Virus record (IMG/VR): IMGVR_UViG_2767802758_000001
Location: 8,410-72,409 of that record
DNA: 64,000 bases
Reading direction: 5' to 3' (one strand)
Source: a virus
Lineage: Duplodnaviria; Caudoviricetes
Shown: positions 4,585 to 8,066 of the stretch, piece after piece
Numbering within the stretch: the stretch's first letter is position 1
Layout of the letters: each line of letters starts with the position of its first letter
Notes under the pieces: generated by a model
Seen by the model: the letters and a program-made list of their open reading frames with translations, nothing else
What the model was told of the DNA's origin: nothing
Databases searched by the model: none
Made by a program: the position numbers and the translations under genes

Positions 4585-4608
4585 AAAAAAAAGCCCGCAT
4601 TAGCGAGC
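4585..4608 (-). terminator. Intrinsic terminator after the LexA-controlled gene
   Basis: GCTCGC-TAAT-GCGGGC followed by U8 on the minus strand. Confidence 0.7.
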
Positions 4609-4630
4609 AGGGAAGTGTGGAGCAAGGTGC

Positions 4631-5032: not shown

Positions 5033-5193
5033 AAAAGAAAAACCCGCCGAAGCGGGTTGTCCAGGTAACAAAAAAGCCCCGGGAGGGGCTTTGTCGTATT
5101 GGTGCAGGCCACCGAGAAAACTGCAGGCCGTGCGGATTCCTGCAGGTTGATCGGCTATAGGCCAGGCAAAGAAAAGCCGCCCTGGTGGCGGCT
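5033..5193 (-). terminator. Three tandem intrinsic terminators
   Basis: AACCCGC-CGAA-GCGGGTT, AAAGCCCC-GGGA-GGGGCTTT and AGCCGCC-CTGGT-GGCGGCT, each preceded by an A-tract on +. Confidence 0.7.
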
Positions 5194-5225: not shown

Positions 5226-5744
5226 TTAGTCATCAGACCAACAACCCCGTCGGACTTGAGTTTCTATAAACAGTAGCTCCATCTGATCACACAATTTGGA
5301 TGCTTTGAGCCATGCATTCAAAACCATTGGATCGTTTGCGGAGACGGGTATGCCGCTTGATGAAGAGCGAGACTCAAACTTTGGGTGGCCAGTTAATGCA
5401 TCTGCAAGTTCTGAGAACTTCCCCGTAAGAGTACTGTATCTCGAGTCCATTTTCTGTAAAGCTTGGAGTCGAAACTCTAATTTATCCAGTTGCTGTTTTA
5501 TTGAGATTTCTGCAATAGTGGCGTCGTTATTTGCTGTGGTGTTATCAATGGACGTAAAGTAACAAACACCGTCTTCCAATAGTTTATCAACCTTATTTCT
5601 ATATTCATCAACTAGGGCTCGGAGTTCTTTTCTGGATTCTCGTCGGTCGTTATCTCGAGATAAAAAGAACCATCCAACGATAAGAACTAAAGGGCCGAGC
5701 GTAGGAGCAACTACCTGCTTATAGATCGCTAAATTTTCAAGCAT
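5226..5744 (-). CDS. Hypothetical protein with N-terminal TM helix (gene 3 of low-GC cassette)
   Basis: TM segment LGPLVLIVGWFFL followed by a helical domain; AT-rich. Confidence 0.75.
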   Translation of the reverse strand: MLENLAIYKQVVAPTLGPLVLIVGWFFLSRDNDRRESRKELRALVDEYRNKVDKLLEDGVCYFTSIDNTTANNDATIAEISIKQQLDKLEFRLQALQKMDSRYSTLTGKFSELADALTGHPKFESRSSSSGIPVSANDPMVLNAWLKASKLCDQMELLFIETQVRRGCWSDD

Positions 5745-5759
5745 AGAGGTTAGATAAAA

Positions 5760-6077
5760 TTAATTATCGCTATGGGCATTTTCAATATAGCCCCAAACTC
5801 GTTCAACGTACGATTTTTTCTTTCCAATTACCGTTAGATGCTTGCGGAGTTCATTTTGTTGAAGTCCTGCGCGAACCAGCCCTCCAAAAGCTTCCTCAAG
5901 GAAAGACGAACCGAGTCCGAGAGTGCCATCGAGCACGACTGATACCCCCCCACCCTGCTTAAGGGCGGGCAGTAAAATCTCTTCGCGAAAACGCTCTCCT
6001 GACCAGGGGCCGTCGGACCTGTAGCGCCCTGCCGCAAACGGGGAAAAATCTTTAGCTATATTAATCATTTTGCTCAT
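5760..6077 (-). CDS. STAS-like domain protein (DUF4325-type)
   Basis: Motifs GRYRSDGPWSGERFRE and LDGTLGLGSSFLEEAFGGL. Confidence 0.85.
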   Translation of the reverse strand: MSKMINIAKDFSPFAAGRYRSDGPWSGERFREEILLPALKQGGGVSVVLDGTLGLGSSFLEEAFGGLVRAGLQQNELRKHLTVIGKKKSYVERVWGYIENAHSDN

Positions 6078-7170
6078 CTTTCAGCTCTCGAGCGCCGATT
6101 GTTTGTGTATCGAATGACCACTGTACTAGCGTACCCATAATGGATTGGGCATGGTCAAGAACCACTTCGATGCCTGTTCTTCCATTGTACGTGTACATGC
6201 CGCGGTCACTGAAAATTCTTAGAACACCAGAGTTGGCTGATTTGACCAGGTCCAGCATCTCATCCAATCCCTTTCCTCTGTTTCCTTTACCGGTTCTCGT
6301 CGCGCCAAGCTCCAGTGCAGCTTTGATGTATTTTGCGTCAAGATCTGAGCTGGCTCCTAACCGACTCAATATCGCGTCGATTGCGCGCTCTGACCAAGTG
6401 CCGCGCAACGGTAGCGTTCTACGAATTCCGACGCCCAAGTCACAAACTGATAGGTATAGGATACCTTCATCGCTGCATTCAGCAAACACCCACCAGCCTT
6501 GATTATCGCATTTTATTCCATCAGGGCGAGGCTTGATGTAGGCATGATGAACTGCATTGGTGATTGCCTCTTGCATGGCGCTTAACAGGTCGTAGGTTAG
6601 CTCTTCGCCTAGGCGATCTGTTAAGCGAGTTTGAAGGGCCTGTAAGCCGGTAAGGTCAACATTAGTCCCCGCGTGGAAGGTCCACTCCCTAACGCGGCGA
6701 TGCGATATGGCCAAGCGAGGGCTTACTCCCAGCAGTTTCAACAGTCCTATATGCTGGAAGAGTTGTTCAACCACTGGATCGCTGGGCCGATTGGCCTGGA
6801 AGTGGCACTCAGGGAACGTCTCTAGCAGCCTGTGAAGCTCTGCAACAAACAGCAGGGTTCCACAAGGATTAAGCCGTCTAATAGGGCTGAGGTCAATCGA
6901 AACTCTTTTTACTATCTTTGCTGCGCGCCTGACTTCGTTGAGAAATTTCAGCAAACGGCGTCGCCATTTCGGCACAATTAGAGTAAAAACCTGAGGCGCA
7001 GGAAGACGTATGTTTTTAATCTGCCCGAGTTTAGGTGCGTGCTGAGGAGAGGCGGCCCCCAGGAACTTTCTTCGTTCTAAGAGCAGCTGCTTCCTGGCTC
7101 TCGATCTCCGAGTCCGTGAGCGTCGAAGTTGAGCAAGCCTTGTTCGCTTTAAGGGGGATGTGTATTTCAT
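6061..7170 (-). CDS. GHKL/HATPase_c protein with N-terminal STAS-like region (RsbW-like kinase/ATPase)
   Basis: N-box EAITNAVHH, G1 CDLGVGI, G2 NRGKGL, G3 GTLV; overlaps the STAS gene. Confidence 0.85.
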   Translation of the reverse strand: MKYTSPLKRTRLAQLRRSRTRRSRARKQLLLERRKFLGAASPQHAPKLGQIKNIRLPAPQVFTLIVPKWRRRLLKFLNEVRRAAKIVKRVSIDLSPIRRLNPCGTLLFVAELHRLLETFPECHFQANRPSDPVVEQLFQHIGLLKLLGVSPRLAISHRRVREWTFHAGTNVDLTGLQALQTRLTDRLGEELTYDLLSAMQEAITNAVHHAYIKPRPDGIKCDNQGWWVFAECSDEGILYLSVCDLGVGIRRTLPLRGTWSERAIDAILSRLGASSDLDAKYIKAALELGATRTGKGNRGKGLDEMLDLVKSANSGVLRIFSDRGMYTYNGRTGIEVVLDHAQSIMGTLVQWSFDTQTIGARELKDEQND

Positions 7171-7398
7171 TTTTATCCGTTTACAGGCAGGCTAACTTTG
7201 AGATGTGGCACTACATCAAATGACCTGCATGCCTTAGGCTCGTTGTAATTTGCTAAGTCGAGTAGAAATTTTTCCAATCTTTCGCCTAATTGTTGTTGTT
7301 TGACTGATAAAAAATAAGGAGCCAAACGGCTCCTTGTCTCTTCCTGCTCAGTCCTTCTTACGTACAGCCTCCCTGGGCTGGGTCACGTTACCTGTCAT

Positions 7399-7785
7399 TC
7401 ACTTGCTCTCGTCTTTCTTCACGTCCAGGCCGAGCTGGGCTGCTGACAGGAGGATGGCGGTTTCAAGCTGCATACGCTCTCTGTCCGGATCTAACGCGCA
7501 AACCTTTTGATTATCGATAGAAGAGAAGGGCCAAGACTCCGCTGATACGCGGTCCTTAGCTTTCTCCGGGCCAACCCCTTTGGCTATCCATAGCGCGCTG
7601 TAGCCCGTCTCCCGCTCAAGATTAAGGGCAACTTCCACATCGCCAATAGTGTGGATGATTTTGCTTCCTTTCCCAGCCCACTGAGAAACGGCGGAACGAC
7701 TCACCCCAGCCGCCTTGGCCATCTGGGTGTCATTCCAGGCCATTACAGCCTTCAATTTTTCGATTCTGTCTTTTAGTTCGCTCAT
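7399..7785 (-). CDS. cI: CI-like repressor, HTH without S24 peptidase domain
   Basis: HTH TQMAKAAGVSRSAVSQW; divergent from cro; only 128 aa. Confidence 0.85.
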   Translation of the reverse strand: MSELKDRIEKLKAVMAWNDTQMAKAAGVSRSAVSQWAGKGSKIIHTIGDVEVALNLERETGYSALWIAKGVGPEKAKDRVSAESWPFSSIDNQKVCALDPDRERMQLETAILLSAAQLGLDVKKDESK

Positions 7786-7787
7786 AT

Positions 7788-7851
7788 GTAAGCGCAATTA
7801 CACTCTATTTTAAGAAAAGCGTGCTTGCAATGATTGCGTAAGCACGCTAAC
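7788..7851. promoter_or_regulatory. OR: three 14-bp operators (PR/PRM region)
   Basis: GTAAGCGCAATTAC, AAAAGCGTGCTTGC, GTAAGCACGCTAAC between cI and cro. Confidence 0.75.
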
Positions 7852-7859
7852 ATTTGCGC

Positions 7860-8066
7860 ATGAAGAAACAACATGCCATCCAGCTACTAGGCGGCTCTGT
7901 GAGTTCCGCCGCTTCTGCTATCGGGATCATGCCTCAGGCAGTTACCCAATGGCCGGAAGACCTGCCTCCGCGAATCGCAGATCGAGTAATCGCGGCAGTT
8001 GCCCGACAGAACCCAAAGCATTGGCCTACTGCCTGGAAGGCGATAAAGGAGAGCGCAAATGTGTGA
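7860..8066 (+). CDS. cro: Cro/CI-family transcriptional regulator
   Basis: MKKQHAIQLLGGSVSSAASAIGIMPQAVTQWP, typical Cro-like HTH. Confidence 0.85.
   Translation: MKKQHAIQLLGGSVSSAASAIGIMPQAVTQWPEDLPPRIADRVIAAVARQNPKHWPTAWKAIKESANV

What the first reader, a model, noticed from the sequence alone, without database searches (positions are those of the whole stretch)
5226..7170. GHKL kinase + STAS + membrane protein operon in the rexAB position: candidate antiphage system
Three lower-GC, overlapping or abutting genes sit directly downstream of cI, where lambda carries rexAB. Gene 1 has a STAS-like segment, a complete GHKL fold and a very Arg-rich N-terminus (RTRLAQLRRSRTRRSRARK). Gene 2 is a DUF4325-type STAS with the conserved SSFLEE serines as a possible phospho-site. 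Gene 3 is a TM-anchored helical protein and possible effector. This resembles an RsbW/RsbV partner switch with no sigma factor, possibly gating a toxic effector. I do not recognise it as a named defence system.
Basis: partly seen in the sequence, partly recalled or inferred. Interest (0 to 1): 0.8.

Follow-up and report, generated by a model that had tools for sequence, protein, structure and literature searches.

The report
Kinase-STAS switch with membrane protein
A prophage carries, just after its repressor gene, a conserved three-gene cassette (a serine-kinase-like sensor, its small STAS partner and a membrane-anchored helical protein) that looks like an untested, membrane-acting cousin of the VapKSC anti-phage switch published in 2026.

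Summary
Three minus-strand genes lie at 7170-6061 (K, 369 aa), 6077-5760 (S, 105 aa) and 5744-5226 (T, 172 aa).

- K has a basic N-terminal helix, a STAS-like domain and a SpoIIAB/RsbW-like GHKL domain with all ATP-binding motifs.
- S is a DUF4325 STAS protein with a conserved Ser57-Ser58.
- T is a single-pass membrane anchor on a four-helix bundle, with no known family.

The K-S-T order is kept in all 35 or so distinct loci I fetched. These come from prophages, plasmids, an inovirus and integrase islets across several phyla. No fourth gene is conserved.

The closest known system is VapKSC (Chambers et al., EMBO J 2026). There a STAS-GHKL kinase phosphorylates a DUF4325 antitoxin to free a PIN toxin. 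Here a membrane protein stands where the PIN toxin would be, and I found no paper describing that version.

Sister prophages with the same cI carry BstA-like, PD-Lambda-2_B and PDC-S42 genes in the same terminator-bounded slot, so the slot is a defence hotspot.

The function is inferred, not shown. My verdict is a new variant of a known kind. This scan has already noted the same cassette on other DNA (154 notes in at least 132 genomes), and its follow-ups reached the same reading.

The parts
6061..7170 (-). K: 369-aa kinase-like protein (basic N-terminal helix, STAS-like domain, GHKL domain)
   Evidence: ORF. Homologues of 343-378 aa match from about residue 1-10 onward. phrog_3364 E 3e-48. 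AF2 model pLDDT 85.6. NCBI's own call starts at TTG Leu73 (297 aa), but the conserved N-terminus (MK[KR]xS...) argues for the ATG at 7170.
7063..7170 (-). K residues 1-36: Arg/Lys-rich helix
   Evidence: 16 K/R and 1 D/E in the first 50 residues. Helix 6-36 in the model. The basic character is kept in K proteins of K-S-T loci from Burkholderiales to Leptospira, and is absent from the VapK-like protein of a vapKSC locus.
6721..7023 (-). K residues 50-150: STAS-like domain
   Evidence: VIA-align hits spanning model residues 50-150: 1sbo Z 8.0, 3ny7 Z 8.0, 4hyl Z 7.9, RsbS 6jhk Z 7.6, SpoIIAA 1tid_B Z 7.5.
6091..6699 (-). K residues 158-360: GHKL (Bergerat) ATP-binding domain of the anti-sigma Ser-kinase type. 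The N-box Asn205 codon is at 6556-6558.
   Evidence: SpoIIAB 1l0o_A Z 11.6, RsbW domain 3ke6 Z 9.6, RsbW 6m36 Z 9.4, SiaB Z 8.2. Foldseek gives GHKL hits. A profile search of PDB sequences hits SpoIIAB and RsbW at E 2e-3. E201, N205, H209, D244, G246, G299, G301, G346 and T347 stay invariant even when VapK-like and CapK-like proteins are added.
5760..6077 (-). S: 105-aa single-domain STAS protein (DUF4325). The Ser57-Ser58 codons are at 5904-5909.
   Evidence: PF14213 E 1.3e-12. It is the most conserved of the three proteins (31-74% identity). S58, F59, L60 and E62 are invariant and S57 is at least 90% conserved. By motif register, SSFL here lines up with SAFL/SPFF around VapS Ser48.
5226..5744 (-). 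T: 172-aa membrane-anchored four-helix-bundle protein. The TM segment is residues 11-29 (5658-5714).
   Evidence: Hydropathy, and +6 charge in the 15 residues after the TM against +1 before it, suggest a cytoplasmic C-terminal domain. Conserved RExRKExR and TGGxFES motifs appear in 33 homologues. AF2 pLDDT 91.8, helices 2-65, 69-99, 101-118 and 139-167. No Pfam, PHROG, NCBIfam or PADLOC family.
7316..7335 (-). Terminator-like hairpin between cI and K. It marks the upstream edge of the exchangeable slot.
   Evidence: The stretch 7308-7385 is 100% identical in sister prophage L083 and about 92-94% in the others, after which the sequences diverge. Contigs of three runs join 7308 to 5091 with 1094 other letters between.
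5175..5193 (-). Terminator-like hairpin after T, followed by two more at 5073-5092 and 5041-5058. It marks the downstream edge of the cassette.
   Evidence: Similarity to sister prophages resumes at about 5020-4985 and at 5091 in the run contigs.
7399..7797 (-). Context: cI-like repressor (132 aa, HTH only), divergent from a Cro-like gene at 7854-8066 (+)
   Evidence: Phage_CI_repr E 1e-3, phrog_4 and phrog_2328 (transcriptional repressor) E 2-3e-7, and P22_Cro E 4e-7 for the divergent gene.

Best explanation
K-S-T is a self-contained, mobile, kinase-gated toxin-antitoxin-like defence module. It is a membrane-effector counterpart of VapKSC.

Proposed mechanism (all steps inferred):
1. In the uninfected lysogen, the small STAS protein S holds the cytoplasmic four-helix bundle of the membrane-anchored protein T in an inactive state.
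2. K is a SpoIIAB-like serine kinase with its own STAS domain and an Arg-rich N-terminal helix. It is switched on by an infection cue, probably a nucleic acid.
3. Active K phosphorylates S at Ser57/Ser58 at the start of helix 2.
4. Phospho-S lets go of T. T then oligomerises or otherwise damages the inner membrane and stops the infected cell (abortive infection).

Shown here:
- the domain identities and intact catalytic motifs;
- the strict K-S-T linkage with no other conserved partner;
- homology of S, and more distantly of K, to the VapS and VapK families;
- location in a prophage slot that holds defence genes in sister phages.

Inferred only: K phosphorylating S, S binding T, T being toxic, the trigger, and any protection against phage.
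For: Shared parts with VapKSC:
- S and the S protein of a true vapKSC locus (L071) are both DUF4325 (E 1e-12 and 4e-15).
- The L071 protein matches PDB 9z7o_A 'Escherichia VapS' at E 2e-16. It is followed by a PIN gene.
- The K profile aligns to the L071 kinase with hhalign probability 87%, E 4e-6, over 196 columns. All GHKL invariants are shared.
- The published mechanism of VapKSC and CapKS is in PMC13373217.

Linkage: K, S and T occur in that order, overlapping or abutting, in every complete locus. The neighbours on both sides vary.

Family size: 1,349 clusters at 50% identity score E <= 1e-30.

Mobile contexts:
- right after the repressor in a Kerstersia prophage, where K overlaps the S24 repressor gene, in Marinobacter phage AS1 and in Francisella phage KIRK (PMC7924643);
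- in an inovirus;
- between serine recombinases near an MmeI-type restriction-modification gene, a helicase-like gene and a T5orf172 gene;
- on plasmids beside RelE/ParE, HEPN-MNT and MazEF pairs;
- on 14 IMG/VR viral contigs.

Slot: sister prophages with the same cI carry PDC-S42 (E 7e-92), BstA-like (3e-17), PD-Lambda-2_B (4.5e-45) and DUF3800/PDC-M04A genes there.

T topology places its bundle in the cytoplasm, within reach of S and K.
Against: - No experiment bears on any step.
- PADLOC v2 has no model for any of the three proteins.
- T's fold is a generic four-helix bundle. The best match, Z 13.6, is at the level the tool gives as background for helical bundles. Nothing marks T as a pore or a toxin.
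- In classical partner switches it is the kinase, not the STAS protein, that sequesters the output protein.
- The aromatic residue that stacks on ssDNA in CapK (W68) and VapK (F54) appears as Arg/Leu in this K clade in my alignment. The trigger may therefore differ.
- A DNA-damage-triggered killer inside an SOS-inducible prophage would work against the phage's own induction.
- Only a minority of K-S-T loci have a PADLOC-recognised defence gene within two genes on either side.
- Expression in the lysogen is not shown. A terminator-like hairpin lies upstream, and no strong sigma-70 match lies in 7171-7315.
Confidence: 0.55

Rival explanations
1. Classical partner switch with the kinase as the inhibitor. 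As with RsbW or SpoIIAB, K binds and silences T or another target. Unphosphorylated S displaces K when ATP falls or a cue blocks the kinase. T is released by loss, not gain, of phosphorylation.
For: K's GHKL domain is structurally closest to the anti-sigma kinases SpoIIAB, RsbW and UsfX, which sequester their targets. K has two extra modules, a basic helix and a STAS domain, that could hold a partner. An energy drop is a common result of phage infection (general knowledge).
Against: In the nearest characterised relatives, the STAS protein carries the output contact. VapS binds VapC and CapS binds DNA, and phosphorylation releases it (PMC13373217). No PP2C phosphatase, needed to reset a classical switch, is conserved beside the trio.
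Confidence: 0.2
2. An addiction or stress-response (tripartite toxin-antitoxin) module that stabilises mobile elements or responds to DNA damage, with no meaningful anti-phage role.
For: It is found on plasmids next to ordinary TA pairs, and in chromosomal sites with no obvious phage genes in the flanks fetched. The authors of the VapKSC paper themselves note that the line between immunity and general stress response is blurred.
Against: It occurs repeatedly at prophage accessory slots, including a slot that holds BstA-like and PD-Lambda-2-like genes in sister phages. VapKSC gave about 2 logs of protection against phage Bas42.
Confidence: 0.15
3. T is not a killer. It is a membrane-located sensor, or a superinfection-exclusion protein that blocks DNA entry, and K and S report or tune its state. 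Alternatively the trio modulates the prophage's own lysis-lysogeny decision.
For: T's bundle most resembles the four-helix-bundle sensor domains of chemoreceptors and histidine kinases, though not above background. It sits beside the immunity region in at least four temperate phages. In distant K-S pairs the third gene is replaced by non-homologous small membrane proteins.
Against: The cassette also occurs away from any phage, on plasmids and in an inovirus. This argues against a role tied to one phage's regulatory circuit. The charge distribution puts the bundle in the cytoplasm, not where incoming phage DNA or ligands first arrive.
Confidence: 0.1

Closest known systems
VapKSC (VapK STAS-GHKL kinase, VapS DUF4325 STAS antitoxin, VapC PIN toxin; Escherichia sp. 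E4736; Chambers et al., EMBO J 2026, PMC13373217; PDB 9Z7O)
   Same: - Three-gene operon in the order kinase, small STAS protein, effector.
- The kinase has STAS and GHKL domains with the N-box Asn.
- The small protein belongs to Pfam DUF4325, with a conserved Ser at the start of helix 2.
- The module is mobile and often lies near other defence or TA genes.
   Different: - The third gene is a membrane-anchored four-helix bundle instead of a PIN nuclease.
- K has an extra Arg/Lys-rich N-terminal helix that the VapK-like protein lacks.
- The ssDNA-stacking aromatic residue is not evident here.
- S lacks an obvious long C-terminal inhibitory tail.
- K is only distantly related (hhalign probability 87%).
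CapK-CapS transcriptional controllers of immune operons (same paper; PDB 9Z71-73)
   Same: A STAS-GHKL kinase paired with a STAS substrate that is phosphorylated on a conserved serine. Both are associated with mobile defence loci.
   Different: CapS carries a winged-helix DNA-binding domain and represses a downstream immune operon. S here is a bare 105-aa STAS protein, and no conserved operon follows T. CapK has an N-terminal HTH where K has a basic helix.
SpoIIAB-SpoIIAA and RsbW-RsbV partner-switching modules
   Same: These are the best structural matches for K's GHKL domain (Z 11.6 and 9.4). There is also a STAS partner with a Ser-Ser motif at the phospho-acceptor position.
   Different: No sigma factor and no PP2C phosphatase is linked to the trio. 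K carries its own STAS domain. The output is apparently a membrane protein.
Lambda RexAB
   Same: Accessory genes next to the repressor of a temperate phage. Both have a two-part logic of a cytoplasmic sensor plus a membrane protein.
   Different: There is no sequence or fold similarity. RexB has four TM segments and T has one. rexAB is co-transcribed with cI, whereas a terminator-like hairpin intervenes here.

Membership tests
VapKSC | Kinase with STAS plus GHKL domains and an intact N-box Asn | tested here: met
   Folds at 50-150 (STAS) and 158-360 (GHKL). E201 and N205 are invariant. hhalign to the kinase of vapKSC locus L071 gives probability 87%, E 4e-6.
VapKSC | Small single-domain STAS (DUF4325) protein with a conserved Ser/Thr at the start of helix 2 | tested here: met
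   PF14213 E 1.3e-12. The VapS orthologue in L071 is also PF14213 and matches 9z7o_A. S57 is at least 90% conserved and S58 is invariant. Which of the two is the acceptor is unresolved.
VapKSC | Third gene is a VapC-type PIN nuclease toxin | tested here: not met
   T has no PIN match in Pfam. Its model is a TM helix plus four-helix bundle. All K-S-T loci carry T-family or other small membrane proteins, not PIN.
VapKSC | Kinase activated by ssDNA through a conserved aromatic residue (VapK F54, CapK W68) | tested here: inconclusive
   In a MAFFT alignment the VapK-like 'NWFD' loop lines up with 'RRLNP' in this clade. That alignment is weak in this region.
VapKSC | STAS protein binds and neutralises the effector, and phosphorylation releases it | not testable with these tools
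   Needs co-expression, pull-down or multimer prediction.
VapKSC | Protects against phage infection | not testable with these tools
   Only contextual support is available: the defence-gene slot in sister prophages.
CapK-CapS regulators | CapS has a C-terminal winged-helix DNA-binding domain | tested here: not met
   S is 105 aa, and DUF4325 covers residues 26-88. No HTH family hit was found.
CapK-CapS regulators | The pair sits upstream of an immune operon that it regulates | tested here: not met
   Only T is conserved downstream. Genes beyond T differ from locus to locus.
RsbW/RsbV and SpoIIAB/SpoIIAA partner switch | GHKL Ser-kinase anti-sigma factor and STAS antagonist | tested here: met
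   Structural matches to SpoIIAB, RsbW and UsfX for K. S is a STAS family protein.
RsbW/RsbV and SpoIIAB/SpoIIAA partner switch | Cognate sigma factor, and usually a PP2C phosphatase, in the module | tested here: not met
   No sigma-factor or PP2C family appears in the top-25 tallies of the two genes on either side, across about 32 loci.
Lambda RexAB | Homology to RexA or RexB | tested here: not met
   No RexA or RexB family hit in Pfam, PHROGs or PADLOC for K, S or T. Only the position next to cI is alike.

The most novel reading that the evidence does not exclude
K-S-T is a widespread, so far unnamed anti-phage abortive-infection system. A serine kinase senses infection through a clade-specific Arg-rich nucleic-acid-binding helix, rather than the ssDNA groove of CapK/VapK. 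It phosphorylates a STAS antitoxin to unleash a single-pass membrane effector. That would make it a phosphorylation-gated functional analogue of RexAB, and would show that the K-S switch is a general adaptor for unrelated effectors.
Probability: 0.4. Interest if true: 0.7.

Novelty: new variant of a known kind. Interest (0 to 1): 0.6.

Why it matters
If confirmed, this would extend the newly described kinase/STAS (K-S) switch from a nuclease toxin and a transcription factor to a membrane effector. That would show the switch is a modular sensor that evolution couples to unrelated outputs.

The family is large: thousands of sequence clusters, spanning Pseudomonadota, Spirochaetota and Campylobacterota, on prophages, plasmids and inoviruses. 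It is absent from the 2023 PADLOC models, so current defence-system censuses probably miss it.

The system is small (about 2.2 kb) and easy to clone. It offers clear point mutants: the N-box Asn, the Ser-Ser motif, and deletion of the basic helix. It could also reveal a new infection cue.

Tried and rejected
- **PADLOC v2 on K, S and T:** only noise (E >= 0.01).
- **NCBIfam:** only sub-threshold SpoIIAB/RsbW hints.
- **Megablast of the region against GenBank phages:** nothing.
- **PDB sequence searches with S or its profile:** no CapS or VapS hit, only chance matches. The link to VapS rests on shared Pfam membership and the L071 bridge, not on a direct hit. hhalign of the S profile against the single L071 VapS-like sequence was also weak (E 0.026).
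- **Expression:**
  - The only RNA-library signal over the trio is one 550-nt contig from a tick metatranscriptome. It covers 5769-6219 at about 86% identity, with an 82-nt diverged stretch in the middle. This cannot show transcription or name a habitat, so I do not use it.
  - The other RNA-library contigs lack the trio altogether. They are informative only for the slot.
- **Promoter scan:** no sigma-70-like site in 7171-7315. How the trio is transcribed here is open.
- **Fold search for T:** many four-helix bundles at Z 10-13.6, which the tool states is background for helical proteins. Foldseek found nothing at E <= 1e-3. I therefore reject any specific reading, whether chemoreceptor sensor domain, talin or designed membrane-lytic bundle.
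- **ESM Atlas for T:** only unnamed clusters.
- **FliD_N, LmuB and LeoBC hits for T:** weak coiled-coil-type noise.
- **Idea that K-S regulates a downstream operon as CapKS does:** rejected, because nothing beyond T is conserved.
Full report
**1. What is there**

On the minus strand lie three tightly packed ORFs:
- K, 7170-6061, 369 aa
- S, 6077-5760, 105 aa
- T, 5744-5226, 172 aa

K and S overlap by 17 nt. S and T are 15 nt apart. GC falls to 0.42-0.52 over the trio, against 0.55-0.60 in the flanks.

Upstream is a 132-aa HTH-only cI-like repressor (7797-7399), divergent from a Cro-like gene at 7854-8066. A terminator-like hairpin (7335-7316) and about 145 nt separate cI from K. Three more hairpins follow T, at 5193-5175, 5092-5073 and 5058-5041. 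No sigma-70-like site was found just upstream of K.

**2. The three proteins**

K:
- Nineteen homologues match from about residue 1-10 onward and keep the basic N-terminus (MK[KR]xS...R..RL). The ATG at 7170 is therefore the likely start, rather than the TTG (Leu73) behind the 297-aa database call.
- The AF2 model (pLDDT 85.6) has a helix at 6-36, with 16 K/R and 1 acidic residue in the first 50 residues, followed by a disordered linker.
- It has a STAS fold at 50-150: TM1442 1sbo Z 8.0, YchM STAS Z 8.0, RsbS Z 7.6, SpoIIAA Z 7.5.
- It has a GHKL fold at 158-360: SpoIIAB 1l0o_A Z 11.6 with 135 residues aligned and 21% identity, RsbW Z 9.4-9.6, UsfX Z 8.9, SiaB Z 8.2 (Foldseek agrees).
- The N-box (E201, N205), G1 box (D244xGxG248), G2 box (R298-G-K-G-L302) and G346-T347 are invariant or nearly so.
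- Pfam sees only a sub-threshold HATPase_c_2 match. PHROGs places K in phrog_3364, function unknown (E 3e-48).

S:
- It is a DUF4325 'STAS-like' protein (E 1.3e-12) and the most conserved of the three (31-74% identity).
- The motif G-S57-S58-F-L-E-E-A-F has S58, F59, L60 and E62 invariant.

T:
- It has no family in Pfam, PHROGs, NCBIfam or PADLOC.
- It has one hydrophobic segment (residues 11-29) ending in G-W, followed by RDNDRRESRKELR. That is six positive charges within 15 residues after the segment, against one before it. By the positive-inside rule the C-terminal domain faces the cytoplasm; this is an inference.
- Thirty-three homologues share the RExRKExR and TGGxFES motifs.
- The AF2 model (pLDDT 91.8) is a long helix (2-65) that leaves the membrane and packs with three further helices into a four-helix bundle.
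- Fold searches return only generic bundles. The best, Z 13.6, is at the tool's stated background for helical proteins.

**3. The trio is a unit**

Profiles of K, S and T found all three, in that order and on one strand, in every locus not cut by a contig end. That is about 35 distinct loci besides the window. They comprise:
- 17 species-representative genomes, including Pseudomonas and relatives, Chitinibacter, Silvimonas, Janthinobacterium, Methylococcaceae and Hydrogenophilales;
- 14 IMG/VR viral contigs;
- metagenome contigs;
- a Vibrio plasmid.

The Acinetobacter and Leptospira plasmids carry K and S, but their third gene did not match the T profile; see below.

The genes on either side vary. 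They include integrases (5 loci), S24 repressors, resolvases, an inovirus replication gene and housekeeping genes. No fourth gene is conserved.

The K family is large: 4,448 clusters at 50% identity score E <= 1e-3, and 1,349 score E <= 1e-30.

In the most distant K-S pairs (Acinetobacter, Leptospira, Helicobacter) the third gene is no longer recognisably T. It still begins with one or two hydrophobic helices.

**4. Context**

The trio sits right after the repressor in several other temperate phages:
- a Kerstersia prophage, where K overlaps the stop of an S24 repressor gene and so is probably co-transcribed with it;
- Marinobacter phage AS1;
- Francisella phage KIRK, by that paper's gene table (PMC7924643).

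Elsewhere it lies:
- beside an integrase in Achromobacter;
- in an inovirus prophage;
- between serine recombinases near an MmeI-type restriction-modification gene, a helicase-like gene and a T5orf172 gene;
- on plasmids next to RelE/ParE, HEPN-MNT and MazEF pairs.

Among the two genes on either side of about 32 loci, PADLOC recognised a few defence components: mad2/3/8, AriA, PDC-S05/S06, capH, RmrA and a type I S subunit. That is a modest association.

**5. The slot in this phage lineage**

Contigs from three RNA-library runs of two organisms carry a sister prophage with the same cI-cro region. They join position 7308 to 5091 with 1,094 other letters in place of the 2,216-nt cassette.

Five IMG/VR sister prophages share cI (98% identity) or its C-terminal part, and the hairpin stretch 7308-7385. 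They then diverge into other low-GC cargo (GC 0.47-0.50 against 0.54-0.57 in the flanks). In four of the five, similarity to the window resumes near 5020-4985; L085 showed none within the stretch fetched. That cargo includes:
- PDC-S42 (E 7e-92);
- a KilA-N/BstA-like protein (E 3e-17), with a similar ORF seen in a second of the five (not scanned);
- PD-Lambda-2_B (E 4.5e-45);
- a DUF3800/PDC-M04A protein;
- an HSDR_N nuclease-like protein.

The position is therefore a terminator-bounded exchange slot in which relatives keep known or candidate defence genes. This is the strongest contextual argument that K-S-T is a defence cargo.

**6. Closest known system**

A full-text search led to Chambers et al., EMBO J 2026 (PMC13373217).
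- CapK (HTH-STAS-GHKL) is activated by ssDNA and phosphorylates CapS (STAS-wHTH) on a conserved serine, which de-represses an adjacent immune operon.
- The related vapKSC operon encodes VapK (STAS-GHKL), VapS (STAS antitoxin) and VapC (PIN toxin). It protected E. coli about 100-fold against phage Bas42.

I tested the link directly.
- Among 400 sampled Gammaproteobacteria, 59 have a DUF4325 match. This tally includes one unpublished genome, G041. No other claim rests on it.
- One of these loci, L071, encodes a 289-aa GHKL protein, a 123-aa DUF4325 protein and a PIN protein.
- Its DUF4325 protein matches PDB 9z7o_A 'Escherichia VapS' at E 2e-16. VapS is therefore a DUF4325 protein, like S. This agrees with an older note that one VapC group is 'transcriptionally coupled to DUF4325' (PMC5499597).
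- The K profile aligns to the L071 kinase with hhalign probability 87% (E 4e-6, 196 columns), and to a CapK-like 416-aa protein with probability 79%.
- By motif register, VapS Ser48 (FA-S-PFF; T-S-AFL in L071) corresponds to S57 of G-S-S-FL here. S58 is the invariant residue. Which one is the acceptor is open.

Differences from VapKSC:
- The effector is T, not a PIN nuclease.
- K carries an Arg-rich helix that the VapK-like protein lacks.
- The loop that holds the ssDNA-stacking aromatic residue in VapK/CapK reads R-R-L-N-P here, in a weak alignment.

The paper does not mention a membrane-protein version. Two further literature searches found none.

**7. Mechanism**

Best reading (0.55): S holds T's cytoplasmic bundle inactive. 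An infection cue activates K, K phosphorylates S, and T is freed to damage the inner membrane. Only the parts list, the linkage and the homology are shown. Every functional step is inferred by analogy with VapKSC.

Rivals:
- A classical partner switch in which K itself sequesters T (0.2).
- A stress or addiction module without an anti-phage role (0.15).
- T as a sensor, an exclusion protein, or a phage-regulatory element (0.1).

One point against a straight copy of the VapKSC trigger: a DNA-damage-activated killer would interfere with SOS induction of the prophage that carries it. The divergent N-terminus of K hints at a different cue.

**8. Verdict**

Relative to the literature this is a new variant of a known kind.

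Within this scan it is not new. A word search returned 154 earlier notes in at least 132 genomes describing the same cassette. The follow-ups shown reached the same VapKSC-relative reading. I reached it independently before opening those notes.

Noticed in passing
L082 5390-8270; L083 5399-10352; L084 5237-8783; L085 5238-10144; L086 5238-7498: Sister prophages with the same cI carry other low-GC cargo in the slot after cI. This includes PDC-S42, BstA-like KilA-N proteins, PD-Lambda-2_B, DUF3800/PDC-M04A, an HSDR_N nuclease-like protein, a P63C-domain protein, and unknown ORFs such as a 350-aa one in L086.
   Followed up: partly
L054 1456-2487 (-) and about 35 similar matches: The commonest DUF4325 architecture in the sampled Gammaproteobacteria appears to be a single protein of about 345 aa. 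In the one scanned (L054) the GHKL ATPase and DUF4325 are fused, possibly with an N-terminal HTH. This looks like a fused K-S form, as in phrog_5816. I know of no described function.
   Followed up: partly
L080 121-1794; L081 1435-3090: Larger K-like proteins (431 and 416 aa; the latter has STAS_2 plus HATPase_c) are paired with a DUF4325 protein. One pair lies next to an N6/N4 DNA methylase. These are further variants of the K-S pair whose third partner was not examined.
   Followed up: no
window 6955-7170: The database gene call for K starts at TTG (Leu73, 297 aa). It cuts off the conserved basic helix and the first STAS strand. Other gene callers give the 369-aa form.
   Followed up: yes
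window 5041-5193 and 4593-4611: A run of three terminator-like hairpins lies after T, and another lies after the 73-aa ORF at 4852-4631. The small ORF is thus insulated on both sides.
   Followed up: no
L049 2998-3720: A Vibrio vulnificus megaplasmid has a stand-alone DUF4325 gene with no K upstream. It is divergent from an ImmA/IrrE peptidase gene and followed by a small protein with an internal hydrophobic segment.
   Followed up: no
L031 140-847: In one Methylococcaceae MAG the K gene is split into two ORFs (103 and 130 aa). This is probably a frameshift or an assembly error. S and T are intact.
   Followed up: no
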